From a virus (Duplodnaviria > Heunggongvirae > Uroviricota > Caudoviricetes), in the IMG/VR virus record IMGVR_UViG_2565956727_000002: a stretch of 46,604 bases of DNA; one strand, 5' to 3'. The position numbers were made by a program, and so were the translations under genes. How positions within the stretch are numbered: position 1 is the stretch's first letter; each line of letters opens with the position of its first letter. Below are positions 28,134 to 41,855 of this stretch, piece by piece. A model generated the notes under the pieces. It had not been told where the DNA came from. It saw nothing but the letters and a program-made list of their open reading frames with translations, and ran no database searches.

Positions 28134-28404
28134 GATGTTACCGTAGTATGTGAGTATCCATCGAATAGATACCAAGCAAAAAAGCTCCCGAAGGAGCCTT
28201 CATTTTCACTTTTTTAAATCCAACGACAGACGGCTGGCATTTAAGTATTGTGAAATATTATCAAATGTAATCATCATTGATTTACAAAAGATACATTTTG
28301 CCCCGAAAGGATTCATGTCAGAAACATCAAAAGATGATGTTCTATACTGGGAACCATGACAACACGGGCATCTAAAGTGAATATGGTTTGTAATATTGTC
28401 TACC

Positions 28405-28617
28405 TCAAAGCGCCACTACATGAACAGCGGCAGGACCTTTAGGTCCGTTCTCAATACCAAATTCAACTTCCTGATTCTCAGTTAATGTTTTGAAATCGTT
28501 GCTCTGAATTGCTGAGAAATGGACAAACACATCTTTGCTGCCATCTTTCGGCGTGATGAAACCAAAACCTTTTTCAGGGTTAAACCATTTCACTAAACCA
28601 GTCATTTTGTTAGACAT
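28405..28617 (-). CDS. cspI: cold shock protein CspI
   Basis: 70 aa with CspA-family RNP motifs (KGFGFI, VFVHF); sequence matches CspI as I recall it. Confidence 0.95.
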
Positions 28618-28979
28618 AATTATTACCTTTTGAAGAAATTAGCCCTTGGGCAGAATGGTCCGAAAAAAAATATCAGAGAGAAAAACCAACAAGGAAATCT
28701 CAAGAGGTACAAATAATAAAATTATAACAATGACTGCTTCAGATAAATTTGTAACAAACCAGAACACCATTAACGCATGATTAACCACCCATAGCAAGGA
28801 TTACTTTTGTAAAGAAAAACACAGCAATGAAAGAATAGCTTTATTTATTAATAAAACGTGTCATTCTGATTAAGACCTTTTATCTTACCCTTAAGATTTC
28901 AGGAATTTTGGCTCATGGAAGAGTCCTTTTTATTTAAATTTTACATTCCGCGATGTAAATGTTCCGATTTAATATTACC

Positions 28980-30003
<1,024 letters not shown>

Positions 30004-30007
<4 letters not shown>

Positions 30008-30315
30008 ATATATTTATGATGAGGACGCTCGTGCTTATTGGCAGGATTTTCAATCTTAAAGGAGTACTGATGCTGCAGATAAGACTCAACTTTTTCTGAC
30101 AATTTTTCTGCTACTTCCAGGAAGACTTGCCGGACGCTCCTTCTGGCTGCTGCCTCATAAAACTCCAGCGCAGCTCCTTCAACACGGTCCATGGCGACAT
30201 CCAGGTCAAAAATTTCACCGTCAAAGCGTTCCTTGTCCTGTAAGGCTACAGTTACCGTAACTTTATTCTCAAAATTACGGACTCCTTTCACAACCAGTTC
30301 ATAGTCTTGAGTCAT
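30004..30315 (-). CDS. DUF1327-like protein (YdfR-like) in the lysis cassette
   Basis: 103 aa between holin and endolysin; stop overlaps the endolysin start. Confidence 0.55.
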
Positions 30316-30319
30316 TGGA

Positions 30320-30535
30320 TTACTCTCCTCTCGCAGCCTTACGCCTGTCTTCTTTAATCTTGAAATAAAGATTTGTCAGATACGTCAGCAGGCCAAAAAC
30401 CAGGCTACCCAGCACACCGATTGCAGCCCACTGTGACGGAGTTACTTTATCGAGTAACTGCAATGCCCAGAAACCAGCATTACCCGCCGATGTGCCATAG
30501 GCAACACCTGTTGTTAACTTATCCATTGATTTCAT
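30320..30535 (-). CDS. pinholin, phage 21 S21 type, with dual-start motif
   Basis: [26 protein letters not shown]...[15 protein letters not shown]; two closely spaced Met codons (MKSM) typical of antiholin/holin dual start; two TM domains. Confidence 0.85.
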
Positions 30536-30754
30536 ATCCTCACCCCGATGTACACGGATGGTGCAATATGTTTGAAAAGATCGGAGTCTACGGGGTAGTT
30601 TTGACAGCACACGTTGTTCTCAACGGCGCTAAAAAAACATACACATTAAAAATGTGGGTAATTATTTTGAAAGAAAGTCATATATAAAATAATAATACGA
30701 GAAATGTTTTCATATTTAGTGTACTGTATACGGCCATTTATACAGGAAAAGCCT

Positions 30755-30925
30755 ATGTCAGAACGTAAAAACTCAAAATCACGCCGTAATTATCTCGTTA
30801 AATGTTCCTGCCCAAACTGCACCCAAGAGTCAGAACACAGTTTTTCAAGAGTACAAAAAGGTGCCCTTTTGATCTGCCCTCATTGCAACAAAGTATTCCA
30901 GACAAATCTTAAAGCTGTAGCCTGA
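30755..30925 (+). CDS. small zinc-ribbon protein
   Basis: About 56 aa with CxxC...CxxC (CSCPNC...CPHC); ATG 30755 with an upstream purine-rich stretch. Confidence 0.5.
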   Translation: MSERKNSKSRRNYLVKCSCPNCTQESEHSFSRVQKGALLICPHCNKVFQTNLKAVA

Positions 30926-31288
30926 TTGATTTTATTAGTAACAAGTATTTTTTATATTTTAATAATATATTTAAAGCAGATAATAAAAAACCCGCCTGAG
31001 CGGGTTTGAGATTGTGGTGCTTTTTGTGGGAGTCATCCACTTACGCACTTTGTTTTGCCATGCCAGCAGTTAGCTTCTGCTGTAAAACTATTCATGCAGC
31101 AAACCTGCACTTCACCACAATGGTTAGCATACTTTTCCTGATTAAGATTTTGCCAAATATGCTAGCCATTGTTTCATGTATTGGACCTCCTTACTTTTTA
31201 TTAAAGAGATCCAATATTCACTACTCTGTCCGTATCTCTACTCAGGCATCAGCCTTCTTCGTTATCGTATACAGACGAGCGATGAATT

Positions 31289-31504
31289 TTAATCAGTAAT
31301 GATGACATTTGCTGCTGCAGGACCTTTAGCACCACTCTCTATAGAGAAGGTAACCTTTTGACCTTCAAATAAGGTTCGATAATTATCATTCTGAATCGCA
31401 GAAAAATGCACAAACACATCTTTACTACCATCAACAGGAGAAATAAAGCCGAAACCTTTATCAGCGTTAAACCATTTTACTAAACCAGTCATTTTATTTG
31501 ACAT
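31289..31504 (-). CDS. cspB: cold shock protein CspB
   Basis: 71 aa with CspA-family motifs ([17 protein letters not shown]). Confidence 0.9.
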
Positions 31505-31804
31505 TCTACATTCCTTAACTTGAGCCTTTCGGCATAAATGGTTTGCATAACAGAAACGACTTCGTACTTAATTGGAGAGACTCAAAGAAGGAATAAGTGA
31601 ATAACACCTGAAATGAGAACTGCTTTAGTAAACTACTTCGTATATCGTCTGTTCTTCAAACCGACGCAATCATTAACGCATAGTTGAACATATGAAGCAA
31701 TGTTTATTTTAGACATCCAGCCATCTTCAACCCCATCAAAAAACTATAGCTTTCTTCAGGAACGTGTGTATAGTGCGCCAAGTTATCAGTATTAAGGAAT
31801 TTTT

Positions 31805-32017
31805 TTGTCCCGTAAAATGACAGGAATTGTCAAAACCTTTGACGGCAAAAGCGGCAAGGGTCTTATCACCCCATCCGATGGTCGTATCGATGTCCAGCTT
31901 CATGTTTCAGCGCTCAATCTCCGCGATGCAGAAGAAATTACCACCGGATTACGCGTGGAATTTTGCCGGATAAATGGTCTGCGTGGCCCTTCAGCTGCCA
32001 ATGTTTACCTTTCATGA
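31805..32017 (+). CDS. cspF: cold shock-like protein CspF
   Basis: 70 aa cold-shock-domain paralogue ([23 protein letters not shown]...); start is a TTG at 31805 or the ATG at 31817. Confidence 0.85.
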
Positions 32018-32309
32018 GCTATATTAAAGCTTTAATTTCAGGCCCCATCGGATCACACATGGAGAGTTTTTATGAATAACCCCGTCTGTCTTGATGACTG
32101 GTTGATTGGCTTTAAAAGCTTATGCTGTACTTTGGCCGTAATAGCTCTGCTAATAATATAATAAGCAGACTCATTGTGTTTAGGGACATTGTACTGGAAG
32201 AAAACATTTTAAACATCAGGCAAATAACCAAGTCACCAGCTAAATAATAAGTTAACAGACATGAGTCCCGGGATGAGATTCAACATTACCATTGCCCCAT
32301 TTAAAGCAC

Positions 32310-32345
32310 AAAACCCGCTCATCAGCGGGTTTTCTACTTTTTCTT
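32310..32345. terminator. bidirectional rho-independent terminator; candidate tR' downstream of Q
   Basis: hairpin aaacccgc-tcatca-gcgggttt flanked by T-runs on both strands, about 100 nt downstream of the Q stop. Confidence 0.5.
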
Positions 32346-32438
32346 AACGTCGGGTATACAAAGCCCATCGTTGAAAAAATTTTATCCATATTTTTTGAAA
32401 AATGCAAACATCATGTCGCCATCTTCAGCAAAAATCAT

Positions 32439-33191
32439 TTATCTCGTCACCTTCCTCAATTGCGCTTCCGCGTATGCTTCTTCCTGCCAGCACTTTGTTA
32501 CCAGTTTACCAATGACGTCCGCATACCCCTTATACCACTGATAATCGGTCAGGTCTGGTACCAGCTTCTGGACATGACGTCGTGCCAGCGTGGTCGGTAA
32601 ACGACTAAACCGGTTTCCATTACAACGCCCACAAATCTTATATACCGGTACGCCATGAAACCGGGTTCTTTTTTCATCCAGAACAATCCCTTTACCCTTA
32701 CACCCTCTGCACGCTGTGCTGACTTCGCCCTTACCATGGCAATGCTGACATAGTTCCTTCACCCATTCTTCCTTGATTACAGATTCCCCGCGTCTGTAGT
32801 GTTTCACCACTTCGCGCAATACATTATAAAATCCCGTACCTGAACAATGCTCACAGCGAGCCTTACTTGCCGCAGACCTGGAGTAATCAGCAAAGGCAAA
32901 ACTCACGAGGTAAGGAATAATCTGTAACCGGATTTCTTCACTCAATTTGTTCAATGTCGGGTTATCCAGTGCCATCGCGTAATTTAGCAGGCCTTCAATC
33001 GCAAACTGAGGGTCCTGAACACCAACTTTTGCCAGAAATAAGGCCAACCCAAGTGGTGCTTTCGACTGCACCATCCCCTGCGCTGCCATTACATCCGTAA
33101 TTGTTAAACAACCGGTGCCTGTCGCTGGAGCGTCATCGCTCAATTTTGGAGATTTTGGGGAGTAATATTTTGGTAAGGCTTCAAGGTTCAT
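32439..33191 (-). CDS. quuQ: late-gene antitermination protein Q (QuuQ/phage-21-type)
   Basis: About 250 aa with CxxC...CxxC zinc-binding motifs (CEHCSGTG...CQHCHGKG...CRGCKGKG); position upstream of the lysis genes. Confidence 0.8.
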   Translation of the reverse strand: MNLEALPKYYSPKSPKLSDDAPATGTGCLTITDVMAAQGMVQSKAPLGLALFLAKVGVQDPQFAIEGLLNYAMALDNPTLNKLSEEIRLQIIPYLVSFAFADYSRSAASKARCEHCSGTGFYNVLREVVKHYRRGESVIKEEWVKELCQHCHGKGEVSTACRGCKGKGIVLDEKRTRFHGVPVYKICGRCNGNRFSRLPTTLARRHVQKLVPDLTDYQWYKGYADVIGKLVTKCWQEEAYAEAQLRKVTR

Positions 33192-33261
33192 GCTCGTTCT
33201 CCACTTACGCCAGTACGCCAATTGCCAGCGCGCGATCGATAAAACGAAATATCAGCTCCAG

Positions 33262-34293
33262 TTAGGAGCCATACTTCTCTTCAAATGCCACTGTATCCGT
33301 ATGCAGCTCGTTGTGATGCTTTCTGCACAAAGGCAACACAAAGAGATCATGTGCTTTTGTTCCCATTCCGCCCTGCCCGTGACCAATCAGATGATGCGGA
33401 TCGTCGGCTGGCATACCGCAGCAAGCACACGGCTGTGTCTTAACCCAACGTGTGTATTTCTCCTTAACCCAGCGGCGACGTTTAGGCAGCTTCATGAAAG
33501 ATTCCGGAGACTCTGGATCAACGGTGATGCTTACCACCGTCTTTTCCTGTGGTGTTTTTTGTTGCTGGTGGGCGTAAGGCAACGGTGCAAGATTTTTTGT
33601 GCGTTGTTTCAATATGCTGGTGGCGGTCTGCTCTCCCGGTACGATGTCGCTTTCGCGGTACACCGAGCAGATTTTTTCCGCTGGTAATCCCAGCGAACGA
33701 CGCGATACAGCCTCAGGTAGTGCATCCACCACCTGATTGCAGACCGCCCACCAGGATAATTCAGCCAAAGATAATTCCCGCTCCTGCGTACCGCTTATTG
33801 CGTGACGGATGACGTCAATCACCCATGCTGTCAGATTTTGTTGAGCAAGCAGCTCCAGTGATTCCGATGTCTGGTCACGCAGTTGGTTGTCGCAGTGCCA
33901 ACACAACACCATTGCGCCGGTACCATAACGGTGAATGACTGTTTCAGAGTGATGGTAATCGCCATTAGGCCACTGGCAGGATGTAACATGACGTAATAGC
34001 CAGTCAGACAATGCGCCAACACCGCCAGCAGCACGAATCACCCGTTCGTTACTAAAAAACGGCAGCAATGTTTTGTCTTCCGCCAGCGGCTGGCGAACGG
34101 CAGGAACGACTCCGGATGGCAGATTACGCATGCTTTTTGGTTCCGGTTCCACCAGCACTCGAGGATTATGAAATATCTGTATGGATTCACGGCCCGGCTT
34201 AAGGACCACCAGCCCAAGCTCAGGCACCAGAACAGGTCTAAGTAATACCCGCACGTTACCTCCAGATCCGTTGCTGGAAAGTGCGGGACGCAC
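33262..34293 (-). CDS. DUF968 family protein with C-terminal HNH-like motif (YdfU-like)
   Basis: 343 aa; C-terminal ...CACCGMPADDPHHLIGHG...CRKHHNELH... HNH-like zinc-finger nuclease motif. Confidence 0.75.
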   Translation of the reverse strand: MRPALSSNGSGGNVRVLLRPVLVPELGLVVLKPGRESIQIFHNPRVLVEPEPKSMRNLPSGVVPAVRQPLAEDKTLLPFFSNERVIRAAGGVGALSDWLLRHVTSCQWPNGDYHHSETVIHRYGTGAMVLCWHCDNQLRDQTSESLELLAQQNLTAWVIDVIRHAISGTQERELSLAELSWWAVCNQVVDALPEAVSRRSLGLPAEKICSVYRESDIVPGEQTATSILKQRTKNLAPLPYAHQQQKTPQEKTVVSITVDPESPESFMKLPKRRRWVKEKYTRWVKTQPCACCGMPADDPHHLIGHGQGGMGTKAHDLFVLPLCRKHHNELHTDTVAFEEKYGS

Positions 34294-34534
34294 GTGGTGG
34301 GCGTTCGGAGTAAGGCAATCTGACTGAGATTATCCAGTGACGGTAGTCGAGGCTAAGGGCTTTCTTAACCTCGTATCCGCGCCTGCGGTAACACTGAATT
34401 ATCCATTCAGCCTGCTCTTCAGTGCATGGAGGGTGTTGGAACCATTCAGACTTGAATGCGTGAGAATACCGCTCGTGCGTGCAGACAAGAACGGGCGAAT
34501 TATCAGAATTGTAATATTTTACGTTGCGTGCCAT
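34256..34534 (-). CDS. hypothetical protein (92 aa)
   Basis: ORF with several Cys/His residues; overlaps the 5' end of the DUF968 ORF. Confidence 0.4.
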   Translation of the reverse strand: MARNVKYYNSDNSPVLVCTHERYSHAFKSEWFQHPPCTEEQAEWIIQCYRRRGYEVKKALSLDYRHWIISVRLPYSERPPRASRTFQQRIWR

Positions 34535-34600
34535 CGGTTTTCTCCGGTGGCACGGTGTTACTCAGCGGGAGTTCAGCCCCGCGCAAGATTGTAGATGAGT

Positions 34601-34852
34601 TTATTCTTCTGCAAAAGCTGAAAAGCCTGCTTTTATTCCGATCTCTTTCAGTGCCTGTAATGAAGTGACAAACTCACCTTCGCGCAAGATAAATCCGTCT
34701 GTCACTCGACCATCCACAAAATTAATTAACGCAGCCCCATTCTTTCGCAAACACATAATGCGGTAATGACTAACAAGATTTCCATTTTCAACGCACACAG
34801 CATAGAGGCCATCTTCACAAAAAATTTTACGCAGTTCTTCGATGTTCATCAT
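34601..34852 (-). CDS. hypothetical protein (83 aa), possibly Rem-like
   Basis: 83-aa ORF upstream of the hok locus, same size and position as rem in the K-12 Qin prophage; sequence identity not verified. Confidence 0.4.
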   Translation of the reverse strand: MMNIEELRKIFCEDGLYAVCVENGNLVSHYRIMCLRKNGAALINFVDGRVTDGFILREGEFVTSLQALKEIGIKAGFSAFAEE

Positions 34853-34964
34853 CAGAATCCTTCCGGATAATTAGCTCTCCCCTTTAAGGGACCATCCCTC
34901 TTATCCCTGCGCGCTACTTAAGTATTTTTGATTCTATTCCGGCACCGTCCAGAACTTCAAACGC

Positions 34965-34999
34965 GTTGAAAATAAAAACAAAAACCCGCCGAAGCGGGT
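34965..34999 (-). terminator. rho-independent terminator downstream of hok
   Basis: hairpin cccgc-cgaa-gcggg followed on the minus strand by TTTTTGTTTTTATTTT. Confidence 0.6.
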
Positions 35000-35068
35000 T
35001 AAGTGCGGGTGCGTTGAGGATGCCTGACACATCAGAGGTGGCGAGGGATTTCTCCCTCGCCGGGTCTC

Positions 35069-35224
35069 TTACTCCTCAGGTTCGTAAGCTGTGAAGACAG
35101 CGACCTCCGTCTGGCCGGTTCGGATTCGTACCTCGCAGAGGTCTTTCCTCGTTACCAGTGCCGTCACTATGACGGTTAAACAGATGACGATCAGGGCGAT
35201 TAACATCGCCTTTTGCTGCTTCAT
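35069..35224 (-). CDS. hokD: Hok-family membrane toxin (HokD/RelF)
   Basis: 51 aa MKQQKAMLIALIVICLTVIVTALVTRKDLCEVRIRTGQTEVAVFTAYEPEE, a canonical Hok toxin. Confidence 0.9.
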   Translation of the reverse strand: MKQQKAMLIALIVICLTVIVTALVTRKDLCEVRIRTGQTEVAVFTAYEPEE

Positions 35225-35281
35225 AGCCTGCTTCTCCTTGCCTTCCGGCACGTAAGAGGCTAACCTACATGTGTCTAGCAT
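35069..35281 (-). CDS. mokD: Mok-like in-frame N-terminally extended reading frame for hok translation control
   Basis: 70-aa ORF including the hok frame with a 19-aa N-terminal extension, as for mokC/hokC. Confidence 0.5.
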   Translation of the reverse strand: MLDTCRLASYVPEGKEKQAMKQQKAMLIALIVICLTVIVTALVTRKDLCEVRIRTGQTEVAVFTAYEPEE

Positions 35282-35420
35282 GAAATTGGCCTCAGATTAA
35301 TGTTAAGCGTCTTGCAGGACGCGTAATGTTAACTGGGGCTTTTCTCTATCTGCCTTTGGTGTTCATGCCCGAGGCAGATAGCCTCAAGCACCCGCAGCCA
35401 TTCTACTTAACTACCTTTAC
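35282..35420. promoter_or_regulatory. hok mRNA leader / putative Sok-like antisense RNA region
   Basis: Non-coding region upstream of mok/hok with an extended inverted repeat (tatctgcc...ggcagata); by analogy with hok/sok loci. Confidence 0.35.
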
Positions 35421-35876
35421 CTCGCCAATATGAAATCAGTCAGAAAGGCGATCCATAAGAACAATAGCAAGACAATAAATCGCCATTACAGCCGTAATAG
35501 CCAGCGCACATTTGAGAACCAGCACCACAACCTCCTGTATTGGACGTACACCAGTCCTGATAAATATGAGGCTGTCTCGTCCGTGATTCAATACAACTAT
35601 TGGGTATGGTTTCTCTGATTTTTCTGTGGAAATGGAGCTCAACCACTAGTCACCACCAGCACTTCTTTTAATACGCAAAGTCCGACGCAAGCCAACAGGT
35701 TCAATTTCATATATATGAATTTTAAGCAGTATTCACCTACACGATTATTAGCAATTTCCTGAATATATGATGGAGTGTCTTGACGATTTTAGACCAGAAA
35801 CGCCCTCCACGTATTTCTGAGCGTACGCAACATATGTTATGGCAAATGCGAGCATATGGTAGAGTCAAATAAGTAA

Positions 35877-35898
35877 GAGCCACCCGCAGGTGGCTCTT
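35877..35898 (-). terminator. putative terminator just downstream of the AIPR-like gene
   Basis: hairpin agagccacc-cgca-ggtggctct 5 nt after the stop codon, followed by T-rich sequence. Confidence 0.45.
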
Positions 35899-35902
35899 AC
35901 TT

Positions 35903-37678
35903 TTACTCTTGCAATTCGATGATCTGCTCTTTACCTAGTAGATGATTAATAATATTTAATACTTTTTCTCTGTTCTGGAAGAATCTTGCTATATAACTAT
36001 TGGGGAAGACTTCCTGTATGTGATTATAAGTATCAGAAGCCAGCTCTATACATTCCTCCAGTGAAACGTTTCGGCTATAAGAGAAGATGTGATTCTCCAC
36101 AGAGGAAACTTCTATTTTATTCATGAGTATGGATATTAAAACATAATTTCCATGAATCATTATTTGATGAATCTGCTTCTGATTTTCCATATCTACTGAT
36201 AGTAGTTTAACTATACTTTCTTGCAATATATCATTTGCTAATCTATAAGCATTTACTTTATTTATTATATCCAAACCGGTAGGACCATTTTCAGCTGGGA
36301 ATACTTTTTCATAAAGACCTCCCCAGCTTTCAAAAAAACGTCCTCTATTTAGTTTTAAGGAAGATATCAATGTTTCATCTTTAGAGGCACACACTAATGC
36401 GTTTAAAGCATCATCAATATCAATGGTATTACCACCTGTCTGGCTGGAGTCTTCTTGCCTGAGTAGTTTGTAGCTATATCCGCCAATAAAGTTTATTTCT
36501 CTTTGTATTCTTTGTTGCTCGGGCCTCTGTGATGAGAAATCTCTTCCAGTAACCCTGTTTTGTGTATTGTTGAATTTAGTGACAGAGGTTAAAAAATCTT
36601 CTTTTGCTGCACTGATAAATCTAATGCTCACCTTGATTAGATCTTTTTTTTCTTCGGGTAAAGAGTTGAACACTTCACCAATAGTGCTTACAGTTTGAGC
36701 TCCATTTATTATACTCAGACTTTTAAAACTAAATAGCCCGTACTTCCTGCTTGTACTTAAGTTGATCATGCTTTCTTCTACATCACTATATACAGCAGTT
36801 ATCCCATTGTTATAGTACCAAAAATTCTCCGGCTTTTCACTTAATGTTTTCTTTATCCCAGAGTTTATGGATGAATTACCGAGGACACTTCTTATATTTT
36901 TCTCGAACAGAGAGTACTTGTACTTTTCCCACCAGTCGTATAGGATCCTTGCGGATATTGTTCCGTATATTGCTTTATAAGGTTCTGCTATCTCTCCATA
37001 ACTTTCAAGGTGAACATTGCTAACATTTATAGATTTTGATCGATCATTAGAAAGACCATCCATTATCACTTGTATACCTGCCGGCTCGAATAGCACTGAA
37101 TACTCATCTCTATTCTCTATATCTTTAAATAATAGAGACCGATTCTGAACCTTTTCCCAAAACTCTATGTCTGATTTTACTTCCTCGCTTGGCTCATGAA
37201 CCCCTGTATATATAAATACACATATACATTTATATGTAAATCCTGAGATTGCTTCAATTATGGAGTCTTTGTTTCTTAAAAACCTTTCGTTAAATGTTGT
37301 AAAGTCGCTGGCTATTACTTTTGCGCATGCGTCTTTGAATCTTCCGAATTCTCTTGTGGTTATAGAACCGTCGCCATTTTTAATATATTTTGACTGAACT
37401 ATTACTATCTTTCTCGAATTTTTATTAACATAAACTGCATCTATCCCGCCATCATCTTTTCCATCGCAGACAGCATTAGCAGCTAACTCAGGGTCTGGTT
37501 CATCACCATACAAGCTGATTGCATGCGCAGCTACACAGCGTGTAATTAGAGTTTCTTTCCTATGCTCTCCTACGGAATTAATATCTTTCATATCAATAAA
37601 AGTTCCGTATATAGACTCTAATTGATTAGTTATGCGTACTAAACCTGCTGTTTGCGTGGCTTTGTCGTACTGGGACAT
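35903..37678 (-). CDS. putative abortive-infection / anti-phage defence protein, AIPR-like, with N-terminal PD-(D/E)xK-like nuclease motif
   Basis: 591 aa in a markedly AT-rich segment; N-terminal DGGIDAVYV...IVIVQSKY nuclease-like motif; central NGAQT motif characteristic of AIPR proteins; own terminator and about 290 bp upstream non-coding region. Confidence 0.6.
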   Translation of the reverse strand: MSQYDKATQTAGLVRITNQLESIYGTFIDMKDINSVGEHRKETLITRCVAAHAISLYGDEPDPELAANAVCDGKDDGGIDAVYVNKNSRKIVIVQSKYIKNGDGSITTREFGRFKDACAKVIASDFTTFNERFLRNKDSIIEAISGFTYKCICVFIYTGVHEPSEEVKSDIEFWEKVQNRSLLFKDIENRDEYSVLFEPAGIQVIMDGLSNDRSKSINVSNVHLESYGEIAEPYKAIYGTISARILYDWWEKYKYSLFEKNIRSVLGNSSINSGIKKTLSEKPENFWYYNNGITAVYSDVEESMINLSTSRKYGLFSFKSLSIINGAQTVSTIGEVFNSLPEEKKDLIKVSIRFISAAKEDFLTSVTKFNNTQNRVTGRDFSSQRPEQQRIQREINFIGGYSYKLLRQEDSSQTGGNTIDIDDALNALVCASKDETLISSLKLNRGRFFESWGGLYEKVFPAENGPTGLDIINKVNAYRLANDILQESIVKLLSVDMENQKQIHQIMIHGNYVLISILMNKIEVSSVENHIFSYSRNVSLEECIELASDTYNHIQEVFPNSYIARFFQNREKVLNIINHLLGKEQIIELQE

Positions 37679-37969
37679 CCTTTGCGCTCCTGAACATGTA
37701 ACAAAATATGATTCGCATTATAAGATTTTTTTAATGTTTAGCCGAAGAGTTTTTTGCATGAGTTATGACATAAGTTTAGTTCGTAGTTCTGCGATATAGT
37801 TTTCTCCTGAAAACAAAAAACATCTGGGGCATGAGGTGAGCTCCGAAAGTTGGACATCTCAACGATTATGTCAAGAGCGTCTACTGGGACGTGGTCTGTG
37901 TAAACGGTCACTCCTAGTACAAAGCAGACAACAATGCCAGTTTTAATCTAATCCTATACAACAGAAATG

Positions 37970-38425
37970 TCATTTCACATTTGAACTAATGCACTTTAAT
38001 ATCGTTACTTCAAAATGCTGAACATTTCCCTGATAAAACGCCAGTATGCGTTGCATCACTTCGCTCTTCCGGCACTCGCGACAGATTATGTTTAGACGAC
38101 TGTCGTAGCGACGTATTTCTCCGTCAGGTAATGACCAGATAAGGTCCGGATCAACCACAGCAGGTTTCTTCACCTTTGCCCTCGAGAGTTTTTTGCGGGC
38201 GTTTTGCCAGTCCTTACGCGCCTGTTCAGACGGGAATAACCCGTAACCAGAGCTGTATACATCGCCACTGGCAACCAGCTCTCTGGCCAGAACGCTCATC
38301 AGATATCTTGTTGCCCCAGTTTTAGTTTCCAGTTGTCGTAACGTCTCGCGCCCACTCTGGCGTACGAGTTCCACCACCTGCCCTTTAATTTTTTCCCGCT
38401 CTTCTTGTGTAAAAACTTTTGCCAC
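37970..38425 (-). CDS. hypothetical protein (151 aa)
   Basis: ORF between the replication initiator and the AIPR-like gene; basic, CxxC pair (CRECRK); function unknown. Confidence 0.45.
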   Translation of the reverse strand: MAKVFTQEEREKIKGQVVELVRQSGRETLRQLETKTGATRYLMSVLARELVASGDVYSSGYGLFPSEQARKDWQNARKKLSRAKVKKPAVVDPDLIWSLPDGEIRRYDSRLNIICRECRKSEVMQRILAFYQGNVQHFEVTILKCISSNVK

Positions 38426-38465
38426 AAGTCCTCCTGAACATTACTTTATGCCCTAAAATCAACAC

Positions 38466-39485
38466 TTATCCCCTGAAACCAGGCGGAATTTCTGTATCCG
38501 GTTCAGAAATATGATTCACACAACGCTGTACAGGTGAACGTCCCAGGCGGATGACCAGTTCGTCCCATTTTTCGCGGAGTTTTGACGGGCTCATGATGTT
38601 TTTTACCCAGAATTGATCTCGCTGTACCCGACCAAACATTTCGCAAATTTGTCTGTGGCTTCTGCCATCCAGCATCCGCATTGTGCGCACGTCATTGGCC
38701 CAGGCTGTCCAGTTAGGCTCTTTTGGTCGCATGATCTCTCCATCGTCGCTGGCAGCCTGTTCGTAAAGGTTCACGATCCGCCCCCAAATCCACTGCGCAC
38801 ACGCCAAATCCTCCCTGCTACCCCACTGGCGTTTTTTCGCACTAAACACAACCGCGTCGGGGTTCCGGGTTAAAAAATCCTGTTCAGCGGTCTGCGGGTC
38901 CGGTTGCGAAGCTTCCGGACGAAAAGTGTTTTTATTCTCTGTAGTAATCTCTGTTGTATTCTCTGTAAGATCATCAGGCCATTTTGACCCGATGACATTG
39001 GGTCGTTTTGAACCAATGGAGCGTTTCGTTTTGACCTCTTCCATCGTGTCATTTTGACCTGATGGAGCGGCGCATTTTAAACCGATGGATTCGCTCAATT
39101 TGCCACCATCTAAAAGCTCGCTCCCGTAGTTGATCGTGTAGAAATTGGTCATATCGCGCTTTGATTTATTGAGCTTTTCACAACGCAAAAGCCCCAGCGT
39201 TTTCAGACTTGCAAACGCGCGCTTTAACGTTGACTCTGACCAGAATGGGAACTGTTCCAGCCATTGTTCCGTTGTGTTGTAAATCCAGCGAACACCATCA
39301 CATTCCATGCCGGAATTGGTATCTCTCAACCAGTAATGCAACTGCTGCAACACAATGGCTTCATTTAAGCCAATCTTCATCGCAAGCTGTGTGTTTATAA
39401 CCAGTGGGCGTTCAGCAAAAAGAAGGCTCATAATTCCATCCAGCTTTTTGTTGGTATTGCTGTCGATACGCAAGTTTGAAAGCAA
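38466..39485 (-). CDS. putative phage replication initiation protein (O-like / YdaU-like)
   Basis: 339 aa; N-terminal winged-helix-like region, acidic linker and conserved C-terminal domain; position downstream of the cro/cII-equivalent genes. Confidence 0.55.
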   Translation of the reverse strand: MLSNLRIDSNTNKKLDGIMSLLFAERPLVINTQLAMKIGLNEAIVLQQLHYWLRDTNSGMECDGVRWIYNTTEQWLEQFPFWSESTLKRAFASLKTLGLLRCEKLNKSKRDMTNFYTINYGSELLDGGKLSESIGLKCAAPSGQNDTMEEVKTKRSIGSKRPNVIGSKWPDDLTENTTEITTENKNTFRPEASQPDPQTAEQDFLTRNPDAVVFSAKKRQWGSREDLACAQWIWGRIVNLYEQAASDDGEIMRPKEPNWTAWANDVRTMRMLDGRSHRQICEMFGRVQRDQFWVKNIMSPSKLREKWDELVIRLGRSPVQRCVNHISEPDTEIPPGFRG

Positions 39486-39933
39486 TTGCTTTTTCTATAA
39501 GTTCGTCAGTTTCACGATCCACTACGGCAGGATCAGCAAAAAGCAGTCCGGACTCCACCACATCGCCATATTCTTTGTTTAACCCGGCGATCATGTACGT
39601 GATGCTTTTTCCGTCACTAATTTCACGATACAACCTGAAATCATTAATCCGAATAGCCTCCATAATTGCAGGCACTAGCGCCGTGAACTTTTCACGCTTA
39701 TCCCTGGTGTCGATAACCTTCCAGCGTTCGAATATCTTCACTCGATTAACGCCAAGTGCTCGCTGATCAACCGCGCCACCTTCATCTGTGACACGCTGAA
39801 CATCGATGTTCGGGCGCTCTTTCAAAGCCCAGAATGCTTCAGTGATTAATATCGTCGCCTGCTCCTGTGTCATTCCTGGTCGACATATCCAGGCATCCAG
39901 AGCCTCACGAGCCTGTTCAGGAGTGATTTTCAT
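39412..39933 (-). CDS. YdaT-like protein (cII-position regulator / putative toxin family)
   Basis: 173 aa immediately after the cro-like dicC gene; architecture and the ...FERWKVIDTRDKREKFTALVPAIMEAI... segment recall Rac YdaT. Confidence 0.55.
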   Translation of the reverse strand: MKITPEQAREALDAWICRPGMTQEQATILITEAFWALKERPNIDVQRVTDEGGAVDQRALGVNRVKIFERWKVIDTRDKREKFTALVPAIMEAIRINDFRLYREISDGKSITYMIAGLNKEYGDVVESGLLFADPAVVDRETDELIEKAIAFKLAYRQQYQQKAGWNYEPSFC

Positions 39934-40147
39934 TGTTCAACCGCCCCGCCCGCTTCGTCTTACGATATTCATCATAAACTTTGGGATCATACTGAAGCTC
40001 CCCGCCAGATGCCTCCTGTAGACGCATCGCGCGACCTTCGGGAACTAAATCCCCTTTCCAGCTATAAAGCGAAGCCAAACGAATACCTGCTGCTTGTGCA
40101 AGTTTTGTTTTTGAACCGAAATACAAAAGAGCGTCAGTTTTAAGCAT
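39917..40147 (-). CDS. dicC: Cro-like transcriptional regulator DicC
   Basis: 76 aa divergent from dicA; matches DicC as I recall it. Confidence 0.85.
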   Translation of the reverse strand: MLKTDALLYFGSKTKLAQAAGIRLASLYSWKGDLVPEGRAMRLQEASGGELQYDPKVYDEYRKTKRAGRLNNENHS

Positions 40148-40161
40148 TTAAAACACCTTTA

Positions 40162-40228
40162 TTGTTAGTCATAACTAACAAGATAGATGTTAACAAAAAC
40201 ATAGTCAATACGATTTAGCATTAGCTAA
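40162..40228. promoter_or_regulatory. dicA-dicC divergent promoter/operator region with two palindromic operators
   Basis: Near-perfect palindromes TTGTTAGTCATAACTAACAA (40162..40181) and TTAGCATTAGCTAA (40215..40228) in the 83-bp intergenic region. Confidence 0.6.
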
Positions 40229-40230
40229 CT

Positions 40231-40638
40231 ATGGAAACAAAAAATTTAACTATCGGCGAACGCATCAGGTATCGTCGGAAAAACCTCAAACACACCCAAA
40301 GGTCTCTTGCTAAAGCCCTGAAAATCTCCCATGTGTCTGTATCACAATGGGAACGGGGTGATAGTGAACCTACAGGGAAGAACCTTTTTGCCCTCAGCAA
40401 AGTATTGCAATGCTCACCAACATGGATTCTATTTGGCGATGAAGACAAGCAACCAACACCACCTGTTGAGAAGCCAGTTGCCTTATCCCCCAAAGAACTA
40501 GAGCTCCTTGAGCTGTTTAATGCACTGCCAGAATCAGAACAGGATACCCAGCTCGCCGAAATGCGAGCTCGAGTAAAAAACTTCAATAAACTCTTTGAAG
40601 AATTACTAAAAGCCCGTCAGCGGACAAATAAAAGATAA
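40231..40638 (+). CDS. dicA: HTH-XRE repressor DicA
   Basis: 135 aa with N-terminal XRE-type HTH (…TQRSLAKALKISHVSVSQWERG…). Confidence 0.9.
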   Translation: METKNLTIGERIRYRRKNLKHTQRSLAKALKISHVSVSQWERGDSEPTGKNLFALSKVLQCSPTWILFGDEDKQPTPPVEKPVALSPKELELLELFNALPESEQDTQLAEMRARVKNFNKLFEELLKARQRTNKR

Positions 40639-40804
40639 CATCATCAATGAGTTATCTTTTACCACATCAATTATGTTAGCTATAGCATACAAAATCACTT
40701 GACCGATATGTTAGTCATGGCTAATCTTGTTTGCATCAACACACCGCACGGTGTTCTCAGCAAACAGTTCCGCTACCCCAGCGTTAAGGGGAAATGATGT
40801 CAGC

Positions 40805-40960
40805 ATGGATACTATCGATCTTGGCAACAACGAATCTCTGGTGTACGGCGTGTTTCCAAACCAGGACGGCACGTTCACCGCAATGACGTATACCAAAAGC
40901 AAAACGTTTAAAACCGAAAATGGTGCCCGTCGCTGGCTGGAAAGAAACTCAGGTGAGTGA
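40805..40960 (+). CDS. ydfA: small protein YdfA
   Basis: 51-aa product MDTIDLGNNESLVYGVFPNQDGTFTAM... from internal ATG 40805. Confidence 0.75.
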   Translation: MDTIDLGNNESLVYGVFPNQDGTFTAMTYTKSKTFKTENGARRWLERNSGE

Positions 40961-40961
40961 T

Positions 40962-41537
40962 ATGGATTTCGACACAATCATGGAAAAGGCTTACGAAGAA
41001 TACTTCGAAGGCCTTGCCGAAGGCGAAGAAGCTCTCAGCTTCAGTGAGTTTAAACAGGCACTCAGAATAAGAATGTGCTCTCACAATGACGCGGAGCACA
41101 AATATGAGAAGCAAAATCAGACCGCAGAAAATTTTGTTCTGGAACCCGGAGAAACGCTTTTCAAAATTCCCGTTACGTGCCCCATTTGCGGTTTTACATC
41201 AGAAGAACTTGACGACTCCTGTAACAATCAGGAAACAACCAAGTATGTCGAAGATGATACCGAGTGCGCACGAAGAACGATTATATCCACGAGTCCAAAC
41301 TCCAGGACCAATAAATCTCACTTTGAGAGGGTGATTAATCCACTCCCCCAAACCAATAAAAAAGATGCCGGAGGACAAAAAACCCAATGGAACAACGGGA
41401 TATCTGTCAAAAAAAGACGTTCCATTAAAGACAAACAACGCAGCGCCAACAACTGTAAGCGCTTTATACCAGTAATCAATTTTCATGTTCTTAAGCGGAT
41501 TTATTGGTGGTTGCGACATTGCTTAATGAATCCTTAA
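40962..41537 (+). CDS. YdfB/YdfC-like protein, here a single uninterrupted reading frame (about 191 aa)
   Basis: ATG 40962 with AGGTGAG upstream, overlapping the ydfA stop; contains CPICG zinc-ribbon-like motif; continuous frame where I recall two short ORFs in K-12. Confidence 0.6.
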   Translation: MDFDTIMEKAYEEYFEGLAEGEEALSFSEFKQALRIRMCSHNDAEHKYEKQNQTAENFVLEPGETLFKIPVTCPICGFTSEELDDSCNNQETTKYVEDDTECARRTIISTSPNSRTNKSHFERVINPLPQTNKKDAGGQKTQWNNGISVKKRRSIKDKQRSANNCKRFIPVINFHVLKRIYWWLRHCLMNP

Positions 41538-41796: not shown

Positions 41797-41855
41797 TTTC
41801 TGGTGAAGTTTGGCGGTATCAGTTTTACTCCGTGACTGCTCTGCCGCCGTTTTTA
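41797..41855 (+). ncRNA. dicF: DicF small regulatory RNA
   Basis: Sequence TTTCTGGTGAAGTTTGGCGGTATCAGTTTTACTCCGTGACTGCTCTGCCGCC followed by a T-run, matching DicF as I recall it; terminator stem ggcgg/ccgcc. Confidence 0.8.

What the first reader, a model, noticed from the sequence alone, without database searches (positions are those of the whole stretch)
34965..35420. mok/hok toxin locus retained while the neighbouring relBE position is replaced
A canonical 51-aa Hok toxin with an in-frame Mok-like extension, an upstream leader with long inverted repeats (candidate Sok antisense and fold-back elements) and a strong terminator is present. In the K-12 arrangement as I recall it, relE-relB lie immediately upstream of hokD; here that position is occupied by non-coding sequence and the AIPR-like cassette.
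Basis: partly seen in the sequence, partly recalled or inferred. Interest (0 to 1): 0.4.

Follow-up and report, generated by a model that had tools for sequence, protein, structure and literature searches.

The report
Intact prophage hok/sok toxin locus
This is an ordinary, complete copy of the well-known hok/sok toxin-antitoxin module inside a Qin-like prophage; it differs from E. coli K-12 because K-12's copy was invaded by a relBE-carrying transposon and then partly deleted, not because relBE was lost here.

Summary
Window 35428..34976 (minus strand) carries a complete hokD-type hok/mok/sok module: promoter, a 5' leader matching Rfam RF01794 (117 bits against a cut-off of 59), an in-frame 70-codon mok, a 51-aa Hok identical to K-12 HokD, a 5'-3' fold-back (tac/fbi) pairing, a terminator, and an R1-like antisense Sok gene on the plus strand. 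No relB or relE is present anywhere in the window.

The interpretation has the polarity wrong. K-12 homology breaks 14 nt upstream of the hok ATG (35238/35239) and resumes at 39654. K-12's relBE is cargo of a 3.3-kb IS1202-family (ISEsa1-like) transposon carrying transposase-flxA-ydfV-relB-relE. This element inserts into the hok ribosome-binding region and duplicates the 15 bp GGAGAAGCAGGCTAT. K-12 then lost the hok leader, the cargo slot, two replication-module genes and most of the transposase; ydfW is the remnant. The window has one copy of the target and no transposon ends, so it is the un-invaded allele.

The AIPR cassette (35697..37965) sits in a separate variable cargo slot.

The intact leader occurs in 4245 of 5426 complete E. 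coli genomes, so the locus is ordinary. The transposon's apparent targeting of hok genes, seen outside the window, looks undescribed and merits follow-up.

The parts
35400..35428 (-). hok/mok promoter-like site: TTGGCG (35428..35423), 17-nt spacer, TAGAAT (35405..35400); predicted start at G 35393
   Evidence: 9 of 12 consensus matches. The first base of the Rfam leader model aligns at 35393.
34976..35393 (-). Predicted full-length hok mRNA, about 418 nt
   Evidence: Fold of -180.1 kcal/mol, z = -9.04, 5' and 3' ends paired. Bounded by the promoter and terminator.
35219..35393 (-). hok mRNA 5' leader (tac stem, upstream complementary box, Sok target hairpins, mok start region, hok SD)
   Evidence: Rfam RF01794, 117.1 bits against 59, model positions 1-157 of 157. 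Aligns element by element with an R1-type IncFII hok locus.
35382..35393 (-). tac element GGGUGCUUGAGG at the 5' end of the mRNA
   Evidence: Pairs with 35019..35007 in the minimum-free-energy fold. Duplex of -19.8 kcal/mol against -11.2 for shuffled partners. Covaries across genera.
35335..35341 (-). Upstream complementary box AAGCCCC, the alternative partner of tac in the Rfam consensus structure
   Evidence: Consensus-structure line of the alignment; columns 53-59 are invariant or nearly so in 38 homologues.
35069..35281 (-). mok reading frame (70 codons, in frame with hok); SD GAGG at 35293..35290, ATG at 35281
   Evidence: GAGG and ATG columns are invariant or nearly so. In-frame 19-codon extension kept in 26 of the 37 related hok loci checked.
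35069..35224 (-). hok toxin gene, 51 aa, identical to K-12 HokD; SD GGAG at 35237..35234
   Evidence: PF01848, 81.6 bits.
35223..35237 (-). GGAGAAGCAGGCTAT: the 15 bp duplicated when the relBE transposon inserts; present once here, so this is the empty target site
   Evidence: single exact match. (the same 15-mer flanks the element in filled loci). (no transposon ends in the window).
35238..35266 (+). Candidate Sok promoter: TTGCCT (35238..35243), 17-nt spacer, TAACCT (35261..35266)
   Evidence: Aligns column for column with the hexamers I take, from memory, to be the R1-type Sok promoter, TTGCGC-17-TATCCT. The -35 complement is invariant in 38 homologues. It did not pass the simple consensus scan, because the -10 matches only 3 of 6.
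35273..35348 (+). Predicted Sok antisense RNA (about 75 nt): single-stranded 5' tail complementary to the mok start region, long hairpin 35288..35340, then UUUUCUCU
   Evidence: Fold of -30.5 kcal/mol, z = -4.2. Position inferred from the R1 alignment. Not shown to be transcribed.
35040..35061 (-). 3' UTR stem-loop GGCGAGGGA-GAAA-UCCCUCGCC, the likely 3' end of the processed, active mRNA
   Evidence: repeat I6, 9 of 9 complementary. Conserved with compensatory changes (columns 341-367). Its role is inferred from the R1 model (PMC9841398).
35007..35019 (-). fbi element CCUCAACGCACCC, the fold-back partner of tac
34976..35000 (-). Intrinsic terminator: stem-loop 35000..34983 and T run
35239..39653 (.). 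Segment present here and replaced in K-12 by relE-relB-ydfV-flxA-ydfW: hok leader and sok, spacer, AIPR cassette, DUF977 gene, 339-aa replication-module gene, and the 3' part of the YdaT-family gene
   Evidence: blastn of K-12 locus L001 against the window. Annotation of K-12 and of strains with the window's arrangement.
35697..37965 (.). Variable cargo cassette (36% G+C) holding the AIPR/AbiU-like gene 35903..37678 (minus strand) and a bidirectional terminator at 35871..35902. It is a neighbour of the hok module, not part of it.
   Evidence: Boundaries. Pfam AIPR 115.7 bits. PADLOC AbiU 82.9 bits. Terminator.

Best explanation
The interval is a structurally complete hokD-type hok/mok/sok type I toxin-antitoxin module in the early region of a Qin-like lambdoid prophage, between the replication genes and rem/ydfU/Q.

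**How it most likely works (mechanism inferred from the plasmid R1 paradigm):**
1. A constitutive promoter (35428..35400) makes a stable mRNA of about 418 nt.
2. Its 5' end (tac) pairs with its 3' end (fbi). This closed form can neither be translated nor bound by Sok.
3. Slow 3' trimming back to the stem-loop at 35061..35040 removes fbi. The leader then refolds (tac with the upstream complementary box) and exposes the mok ribosome-binding site.
4. Translation of mok, here an in-frame extension of hok, allows Hok to be made.
5. The short, unstable Sok RNA, transcribed from the plus strand (about 35273..35348), pairs with the mok start region of the trimmed mRNA and triggers its destruction.
6. 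Hok, a small membrane toxin, therefore appears only when Sok stops being replenished, for example after loss of the element or a shut-off of host transcription.

**Relation to K-12:** this locus is the un-invaded allele. In K-12 and about a fifth of E. coli genomes, a 3.3-kb IS1202-family transposon carrying flxA-ydfV-relBE inserted in the 15 bp between the conserved GGCAA and the G of the hok ATG. That uncoupled hok from its promoter, mok and sok. Later deletions produced the K-12 'relBEF' arrangement.

**Shown:** sequence, family membership, conserved and covarying RNA pairings, the empty-site versus filled-site relationship.
**Inferred:** transcription, processing, Sok action and toxicity in this strain.
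For: **Identity**
- Hok is identical to K-12 HokD; PF01848 at 81.6 bits.
- Rfam RF01794 at 117 bits over the whole model.
- Promoter and terminator are in the expected places.
- Element-by-element alignment with an R1-type IncFII hok locus.

**RNA structure**
- The full-length RNA closes 5' on 3', z = -9.0.
- In 38 hok mRNAs from Escherichia, Kluyvera, Citrobacter, Pseudocitrobacter, Photorhabdus, Pantoea, Erwinia and Kalamiella, the tac-fbi duplex is kept at -17 to -26 kcal/mol, against about -9 to -12 for shuffled partners.
- Compensatory changes occur at tac positions 4, 10, 11 and 12.
- RNAalifold predicts the closing helix without being told; pair 4-402 counts are UA 24, CG 11, UG 2, CA 1, and 17 of 63 pairs show double changes.
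- The candidate Sok RNA folds as a 5' tail plus terminator hairpin, z = -4.2.

**Commonness**
- The leader is present in 4245 of 5426 complete E. coli genomes and in 102 phage records, including mEp460 and Stx phages annotated MokW/HokD.

**Empty site**
- K-12 breakpoints.
- Transposon ends, transposase and 15-bp duplication.
- The leader is retained left of the element in most copies.
- The window has no transposon ends and a single target copy.

**Literature**
- K-12 hokD is described as inactivated by genetic rearrangement (Pedersen & Gerdes 1999, as cited in PMC12214031 and PMC7232551).
- HokD is toxic when expressed (bioRxiv 10.1101/2025.08.07.668861).
- The R1 mechanism is reviewed in PMC9841398.
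Against: - There are no expression data. Neither the hok mRNA nor Sok is shown to be made in this strain.
- The candidate Sok -10 (TAACCT) matches the consensus at only 3 of 6 positions and fell below the scan's threshold, so Sok output could differ from R1.
- The minimum-free-energy fold of a 3'-trimmed RNA did not reproduce the tac/upstream-box stem that the Rfam consensus contains. The trimming point is only guessed.
- The chromosomal hok loci tested experimentally (hokA, hokB, hokC) did not mediate post-segregational killing (Pedersen & Gerdes 1999, as summarised in bioRxiv 10.1101/2025.08.07.668861). Structural integrity therefore does not prove activity.
- The ends of the 38 aligned mRNAs were picked with motifs that fix five of the first six tac-fbi pairs. 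Only pair 4 and pairs 7-12 are independent evidence.
Confidence: 0.9

Rival explanations
1. One reading: relBE was the ancestral neighbour of hokD, and here it was replaced by non-coding sequence plus the AIPR cassette while hok was kept.
For: K-12 and 1166 of 5426 E. coli genomes have relE directly upstream of hokD. The AIPR arrangement is rare, in 37 of 5426 genomes.
Against: - In K-12 the relBE side of the junction ends at a transposon inverted repeat, and hok lacks its promoter, tac, mok start and sok.
- Filled loci keep the whole leader to the left of the element, with a 15-bp duplication.
- K-12 ydfW and ydfX are gene fragments.
- The intact leader is the majority state (4245 genomes) and occurs in other genera.
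- The AIPR cassette's own boundaries (35697, 37965) do not coincide with the K-12 breakpoints.
Confidence: 0.03
2. The locus is structurally intact but functionally silent: a conserved passenger of lambdoid prophages whose toxin is never released, as reported for the chromosomal hok loci that were tested.
For: hokA, hokB and hokC loci did not give post-segregational killing or rifampicin-induced killing (summarised in bioRxiv 10.1101/2025.08.07.668861). The Sok -10 here is weak by consensus. HokD carries Tyr rather than Cys at codon 46, and hokD mRNA is edited there at only about 6% (PMC12214031).
Against: Every regulatory element is conserved, with compensatory base changes across genera. That pattern indicates continuing selection on the RNA switch. 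The locus is also kept in functional temperate phages.
Confidence: 0.3
3. The structured sequences flanking hok are unrelated small-RNA genes or chance hairpins rather than hok/sok regulatory elements. Weak Rfam matches to IsrK, rsmX and a snoRNA fall in this interval.
For: Sub-threshold Rfam hits: isrK 25.6 bits (cut-off 50) and rsmX 20.3 bits (cut-off 56), both at about 34979..35066; ceN48 23.2 bits (cut-off 70) at 35282..35380.
Against: All are far below their gathering scores and overlap parts of the hok mRNA that RF01794 and the tac/fbi analysis explain much better.
Confidence: 0.02

Closest known systems
hok/mok/sok (parB) of plasmid R1, the archetype of the family
   Same: Same gene order and the same regulatory elements in the same positions: tac, upstream complementary box, mok SD and ATG, hok SD, fbi, 3' stem-loop, antisense Sok promoter hexamers with 17-nt spacing, and Sok terminator hairpin (Rfam match; mechanism in PMC9841398).
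   Different: - The Hok protein belongs to a different lineage (HokD type; the DNA aligns only in conserved blocks).
- mok is in frame with hok here, whereas in R1 it is out of frame (from my own reading of the R1 sequence).
- The Sok target hairpin is 16-18 nt longer.
- The Sok -10 is TAACCT instead of TATCCT.
- The host replicon is a prophage, not a plasmid.
hokD-type loci of lambdoid phages and prophages (annotated MokW/HokW or HokD in mEp460, Stx-converting phages, Rac-like elements)
   Same: 93-99% DNA identity over the whole 455-bp module, and the same position between the replication module and rem/Q. This is the group the locus belongs to.
   Different: Nothing of substance. Only the neighbouring cargo cassette differs: AIPR here, PD-T7-1 in mEp460.
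K-12 relBEF operon (relB-relE-hokD)
   Same: Identical Hok protein, hok SD, 3' UTR, fbi and terminator; 99.3% DNA identity from 14 nt upstream of the ATG onwards.
   Different: K-12 lacks the hok promoter, tac, upstream complementary box, mok start and sok. There hok is read through from the relBE promoter (PMC3598666). K-12 carries the right-hand 2.07 kb of the IS1202-family transposon in place of 4.4 kb present here.
hokC/mokC/sokC (gef) chromosomal locus
   Same: Same architecture, including the in-frame 19-codon Mok extension (loci L014-L021).
   Different: 82% Hok identity, a shorter Sok-target hairpin, and a chromosomal rather than prophage context.

Membership tests
[quoted passage not shown] | Small (about 50 aa) Hok/Gef membrane toxin | tested here: met
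   PF01848 at 81.6 bits, cut-off 22. 100% identical to K-12 HokD.
[quoted passage not shown] | Structured 5' leader of the hok mRNA (tac stem, Sok target, mok start region) | tested here: met
   Rfam RF01794 covariance model, 117.1 bits against a gathering score of 59, full length.
[quoted passage not shown] | Overlapping mok frame, with its own SD, that starts upstream of hok | tested here: met
   GAGG at 35293..35290, ATG at 35281, open through hok. Conserved in homologues.
[quoted passage not shown] | Long-range fold-back pairing of the mRNA 5' end (tac) with its 3' end (fbi) | tested here: met
   Present in the minimum-free-energy fold. Duplex energies against shuffles. Compensatory changes at positions 4, 10, 11 and 12. 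Predicted independently by RNAalifold.
[quoted passage not shown] | Antisense Sok gene: promoter inside the hok SD / mok region, short RNA ending in a terminator hairpin | tested here: inconclusive
   The hexamers align with the hexamers I take, from memory, to be the R1 Sok promoter, and the hairpin plus U run is present. The -10 matches only 3 of 6 and the consensus scan missed it. Transcription is not testable here.
[quoted passage not shown] | Sok-dependent repression, 3' processing and killing on Sok decay | not testable with these tools
   Needs northern or RNA-seq analysis and rifampicin or promoter-knockout assays.
relBE type II toxin-antitoxin system | RelB antitoxin and RelE toxin genes in or next to the interval | tested here: not met
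   tblastn of K-12 RelB and RelE against the whole window gives a best E of 1.7. The ORFs in 35430..35646 have no Pfam match.
IS1202-family (ISEsa1-like) relBE transposon insertion (the K-12 state) | Terminal inverted repeats TGTTAACACC... / ...GCGTTGACA and a duplicated 15-bp target flanking the element | tested here: not met
   Neither end is found with up to 3 mismatches. The 15-mer occurs once. The window holds the empty site.
AIPR / AbiU-like abortive-infection proteins (neighbouring gene 35903..37678) | AIPR domain | tested here: met
   PF10592 at 115.7 bits, cut-off 25. PADLOC AbiU 82.9 bits. RefSeq names the same protein 'AIPR family protein'. Defence activity was not tested.

The most novel reading that the evidence does not exclude
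The classical relB-relE-hokD ('relBEF') arrangement of E. coli K-12 is the scar of a 3.3-kb IS1202-family (ISEsa1-like) transporter insertion sequence. The element carries flxA, ydfV and relBE.

It inserts in one orientation, with a 15-bp duplication, into the 15 bp that follow the conserved GCCGNAAGGCAA motif, that is from the SD to the AT of the start codon. It does this in hok genes of several unrelated lineages:
- prophage hokD, IncF hok (two loci) and IncI pnd, where both ends were seen;
- four more lineages, including a Kluyvera chromosomal hok, where only the right end was seen.

A type II toxin-antitoxin-carrying transposon would thus specifically disarm and capture type I toxin genes. 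The window shows its un-invaded target.

The published IS1202-family surveys report no target-site duplication for ISEsa1, and no target preference for the long-duplication or no-duplication subgroups (PMC10132070; bioRxiv 10.1101/2022.12.17.520857). I found no paper describing this element. ISfinder and TnCentral could not be consulted.
Probability: 0.65. Interest if true: 0.6.

Novelty: already known. Interest (0 to 1): 0.3.

Why it matters
The locus itself needs no further attention. It is a standard hokD-type hok/mok/sok module that RefSeq already annotates as hokD, and it is present in most E. coli genomes and in many temperate phages.

Its value is as a reference allele. It shows what the K-12 hokD locus looked like before it was rearranged, which fixes the direction of the change.

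That comparison led to a concrete and testable account of where the textbook relBEF operon came from: a transposon that carries relBE and lands in the ribosome-binding region of hok genes. If the targeting is real, three things follow:
- It gives the first target preference for this branch of the IS1202 family.
- It explains why near-identical relBE DNA sits next to different hok genes on hundreds of enterobacterial plasmids.
- It is an example of one addiction module spreading by disabling another.

It also marks the interval between the DUF977 gene and the hok promoter as a cargo-swapping slot. In different prophages the slot holds AIPR/AbiU-like, PD-T7-1, DUF4209 or QueH genes.

Tried and rejected
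1. **Hidden relB/relE in 35282..35902.** tblastn and Pfam were both negative.
2. **Weak Rfam hits** (isrK, rsmX, ceN48, and a plus-strand 'sok' hit of 20 bits). All are far below threshold and are explained by the hok mRNA itself.
3. **Consensus promoter scan for Sok.** It found nothing on the plus strand. The promoter call therefore rests on alignment with an R1-type locus, not on the scan.
4. **Fold of a 3'-trimmed mRNA**. It did not give the expected tac/upstream-box stem, so I do not claim the active conformation from energy minimisation.
5. **Microhomology explanation for the K-12 relE-hok junction.** My first idea was illegitimate recombination at the microhomology AGGAG, or gene conversion between hok paralogues. 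I dropped it once the fixed right end, the inverted repeats, the transposase and lineage-specific duplications on both sides were seen.
6. **Chimeric metagenome assemblies.** I worried that the diverse junctions were artefacts. The same structures occur in complete RefSeq chromosomes and plasmids.
7. **The 2.8-kb 'insert' left of the element in L064.** I first took it for an IS. It is prophage DNA (YdaT 3' part, replication gene, truncated DUF977) followed by the element's own left end and transposase, both deleted in K-12.
8. **Literature searches** for the transposon (IS1202/ISNCY with hok or relBE; ISEsa1; ydfW/intK/flxA). No description was found.
Full report
**1. What is in the interval**

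Reading the minus strand gives, in order:
- a promoter-like site, TTGGCG-17-TAGAAT, at 35428..35400;
- a 169-nt leader starting at G 35393;
- a ribosome-binding site (GAGG, 35293..35290) and the ATG at 35281 of a 70-codon frame that runs in frame into hok;
- the hok SD (GGAG, 35237..35234) and the 51-codon hok ORF, 35224..35069;
- a perfect 9-bp stem-loop at 35061..35040;
- the sequence CCUCAACGCACCC at 35019..35007;
- a terminator at 35000..34983 followed by a T run.

Hok is 100% identical to K-12 HokD and matches Pfam HOK_GEF at 81.6 bits. The leader 35393..35219 matches Rfam RF01794 over the whole model at 117.1 bits, against a gathering score of 59. Although that family is called 'sok antitoxin', its model lies on the hok-mRNA strand and ends at the hok AUG.

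Only the -35 hexamer falls outside them.

**2. Evidence that the RNA elements are real**

The predicted 418-nt transcript folds at -180 kcal/mol (z = -9.0), with its first 12 nt paired to 35019..35007. This is the tac/fbi fold-back of the hok family.

I fetched 53 Hok-encoding loci from one genome per species. From these I extracted 37 further mRNAs with recognisable ends, from Escherichia, Kluyvera, Citrobacter, Pseudocitrobacter, Photorhabdus, Pantoea, Erwinia and Kalamiella.
- In every one the two ends can pair, at -17 to -26 kcal/mol, against about -9 to -12 for shuffled 3' partners.
- Among 20 distinct tac/fbi combinations, tac position 4 is U-A in 11, C-G in 6 and U-G in 2. Position 12 is G-C in 12 and A-U in 7. 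Position 11 includes one A-U.
- RNAalifold, given only the alignment, predicts the closing helix. It finds 17 of 63 pairs with changes on both sides.
- Caveat: I chose the mRNA ends with motifs that fix pairs 1-3, 5 and 6. Only pair 4 and pairs 7-12 are independent evidence.

The in-frame 19-codon Mok extension is kept in 26 of the 37 related loci. It is therefore typical of chromosomal and prophage hok loci rather than an oddity.

**3. The antisense gene**

Aligned with an R1-type IncFII hok locus, the plus strand carries TTGCCT (35238..35243), a 17-nt spacer and TAACCT (35261..35266). The R1-type sequence has TTGCGC, 17 nt and TATCCT at the same columns. That these R1 hexamers are the Sok promoter is from my memory of the R1 system, not from a tool result or a paper read here.

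An RNA starting about 35273 would have:
- a single-stranded 5' tail complementary to the mok start region;
- a long hairpin at 35288..35340;
- a UUUUCUCU tail (z = -4.2).

This is the Sok architecture. However, the -10 matches the consensus at only 3 of 6 positions, and the simple scan did not report it. I call the Sok gene likely, not shown.

**4. How common it is**

- The 182-nt leader segment that K-12 lacks is present at 80% coverage or more in 4245 of 5426 complete E. coli genomes. The median is two copies per genome and the maximum is ten.
- The whole module is in 102 phage records at 90-99% identity. These include mEp460 and Stx-converting phages, where it is annotated MokW or HokD.
- The window as a whole is a Qin-like lambdoid prophage. 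It has rzpQ-rrrQ-ydfR-essD, cspB and cspF, Q, ydfU and rem on one side. On the other side are dicC and dicA, DicF (41798..41849) and an integrase gene.
- The exact hok-plus-AIPR arrangement occurs in 37 genomes, among them ETEC E24377A.

**5. Comparison with K-12**

K-12 does have relE-relB directly upstream of hokD. The window and K-12 are 99.3% identical from 28860 to 35238. They then diverge, and are homologous again from 39654 to 41062. The left breakpoint lies 14 nt upstream of the hok ATG.

K-12 therefore keeps the hok SD, coding sequence, fbi and terminator. It has lost the promoter, tac, the upstream complementary box, the mok start and sok. This agrees with the published statement that K-12 hokD was inactivated by a genetic rearrangement (Pedersen & Gerdes 1999, as cited in PMC12214031 and PMC7232551).

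At the right breakpoint, K-12 ydfX is annotated as a pseudogene lacking its C-terminus. The window has the full 173-codon YdaT-family gene at 39412..39933. No RelB, RelE, YdfV or FlxA homologue exists anywhere in the window.

**6. Where K-12's relBE came from**

In the genome survey, a Kluyvera contig (L027) had near-identical relBE fused at the same nucleotide to a different hok lineage. I therefore searched metagenome and viral contigs for a 22-mer from the relE-hok spacer.

*A fixed right end.* The sequence to the right of ...CTTTGCGTTGACA varies. It is hokD in most loci, at least five other hok lineages in others, several non-hok sequences, and secondary IS insertions. The boundary itself is fixed.

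*The element.* A 278-kb E. coli contig (L064) shows the full structure:
- It runs from TGTTAACACCAAGCTGTAATGTCCCC to ...GGTGACACTTCTGCTTTGCGTTGACA. These are imperfect terminal inverted repeats, 20 of 26 matching, with TGT...ACA ends.
- It is 3.27-3.30 kb long.
- It encodes a 446-aa transposase, followed by flxA, ydfV, relB and relE.

*The transposase.*
- It matches NCBIfam NF033594 (ISNCY family) at 463 bits, against a cut-off of 250.
- It has HTH and rve_3 domains.
- RefSeq names it 'IS1202-like element ISEsa1 family transposase'.
- K-12 ydfW is its last 49 codons.

*The duplication.*
- Fifty-one of the 52 locus copies in which both ends were found are flanked by direct repeats.
- For hokD the repeat is GGAGAAGCAGGCTAT, running from the hok SD to the AT of the start codon.
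- The complete hok leader survives to the left of the element in about 60 of about 85 copies.
- In 13 copies the leader is cut back to 27 nt and joined to the DUF977 gene at the shared 10-mer GTGCCGGAAG.

*The series.* The states form a sequence:
- empty site (this window);
- insertion with duplication;
- deletion of the leader;
- the K-12 deletion from ydfX into the transposase.

The window has neither inverted repeat, even allowing 3 mismatches, and exactly one copy of the 15-mer at 35237..35223.

*Counts.* Among complete E. coli genomes, 1166 have the relE-hokD junction and 788 have the left end plus the 5' part of the transposase gene.

**7. Apparent targeting of hok genes (outside the window)**

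Both ends, with lineage-specific duplications, are seen in four independent hok loci:

| Target | Locus | Duplicated sequence |
|---|---|---|
| Prophage hokD | many | GGAGAAGCAGGCTAT |
| IncF hok | L219 | GGAGAAGAAGGCCA(T) |
| IncF hok | L097 | GGAGAAGAAGGCC[G/A]T |
| IncI pnd-type hok on a Salmonella plasmid | L220 | TGGAGGGGCTATGAT |

- In each case the duplication begins directly after the conserved GCCGNAAGGCAA, and relE points towards hok.
- Four further hok lineages show the same right junction (L083, L093, L102, L027; L067, with one more variant junction, may be a fifth).
- Two contigs of one genome carry reciprocally exchanged flanks (L176/L215 and L194). This indicates two copies that recombined.
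- One non-hok insertion has only a 6-bp repeat (L149). Four other right flanks are not hok (L076, L092, L096 and the L066/L099 pair), and a sixth (L222) lies in a truncated copy among other IS.
- K-12-type relBE DNA (99% identical or more) is on 784 PLSDB plasmids of Klebsiella, Enterobacter, Escherichia, Citrobacter, Salmonella and other genera.

The two surveys of the IS1202 family list ISEsa1 (1609 bp) as having no detectable duplication. They report no target preference outside the dif-targeting subgroup (PMC10132070; bioRxiv 10.1101/2022.12.17.520857). I found no paper describing this relBE-carrying element, and I could not consult ISfinder.

I regard the transposon and its duplication as shown. 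The target specificity is strongly suggested. The novelty is probable but unverified.

**8. The AIPR cassette**

The gene at 35903..37678 (minus strand) has an AIPR domain (115.7 bits) and matches PADLOC AbiU. It lies in a 2.27-kb block of 36% G+C, 35697..37965, whose boundaries are defined by comparison with other prophages.

The same slot, between the DUF977 gene and the hok promoter, holds different cargo elsewhere:
- a DUF4209 gene in strain BLSE177;
- PD-T7-1 in phage mEp460;
- QueH in an ST131 strain;
- other genes in further strains.

It is a cargo-swapping slot that is independent of the relBE event. A recent survey found hok enriched in prophages but not near defence systems overall (bioRxiv 10.1101/2025.08.07.668861).

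**9. Verdict**

The locus is a known, common and structurally complete hok/mok/sok module, and its mechanism is inferred from the R1 paradigm.

The locus itself deserves a low score. The transposon story that the comparison uncovered is the part worth pursuing.

Noticed in passing
Outside the window: L064 7941..11260; L219, L220, L097, L167 and about 80 other loci; K-12 L001 6380..8447: A 3.3-kb ISEsa1-like IS1202-family transporter IS carries transposase, flxA, ydfV, relB and relE. Its inverted repeats match at 20 of 26 positions. It is flanked by a 15-bp duplication of the hok SD-to-AT segment in at least four independent hok loci (prophage hokD, two IncF hok, IncI pnd). K-12 relBE-ydfV-flxA-ydfW is its remnant.
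   Followed up: partly
window 35697..37965: A low-G+C (36%) cargo cassette with an AIPR/AbiU-like gene. The same slot between the DUF977 gene and the hok promoter holds PD-T7-1 (phage mEp460), DUF4209, QueH or other genes in related prophages.
   Followed up: partly
window 35429..35696: A conserved spacer shared by hundreds of genomes up to 35696. It contains an unannotated 68-codon ORF (35642..35436, minus strand) with a hydrophobic C-terminal half and no Pfam match. A terminator-like hairpin (35501..35482, minus strand) lies just upstream of the hok promoter and might insulate hok from upstream transcription.
   Followed up: no
window 35219..35393 (Rfam RF01794): The Rfam family named 'sok antitoxin' matches the hok-mRNA strand and ends at the hok AUG. 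It therefore models the hok leader rather than the antisense Sok RNA. Strand calls based on it would place Sok on the wrong strand.
   Followed up: partly
window 35087..35089 (hok codon 46, TAC) and neighbours: The motif UACGAA at Tyr46 is invariant in all 38 aligned hok mRNAs from several genera. This is the site where A-to-I editing to Cys was reported for hokD, hokC and hokE (PMC12214031).
   Followed up: no
L027 (Kluyvera sp. CHPC 1.2972), L048 (Citrobacter youngae): In Kluyvera, relBE with spacer DNA near-identical to K-12's is joined to a chromosomal hok of a different lineage, at the same position as in K-12 but with 3 nt missing. The orthologous Citrobacter locus has an intact leader.
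   Followed up: partly
L176/L215 and L194 (two contigs of genome 2534681836): The left and right flanks of two transposon copies (hokD-type and pnd-type) are exchanged reciprocally. This implies recombination between two copies in one genome, and shows how copies can lose matching duplications.
   Followed up: no
L149; L076, L092, L096, L066/L099, L222: The transposon's right end also abuts non-hok DNA in a few loci. One of them (L149) has both ends, with only a 6-bp repeat (CGCCTT). This is unlike the 15-bp repeat at hok sites and is unexplained.
   Followed up: no
L045 (Photorhabdus khanii): Here a hok gene has its leader replaced by unrelated sequence immediately 5' of GGCAAGGAG. This is another rearrangement ending at the same spot but without the relBE element.
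   Followed up: no
window 41798..41849 (+), 31273..31665 (-), 28378..28763 (-): DicF sRNA (70.2 bits) and two cspA-type thermoregulator leaders (158.8 and 112.8 bits; the first sits upstream of cspB). This is as expected for a Qin-like prophage.
   Followed up: no
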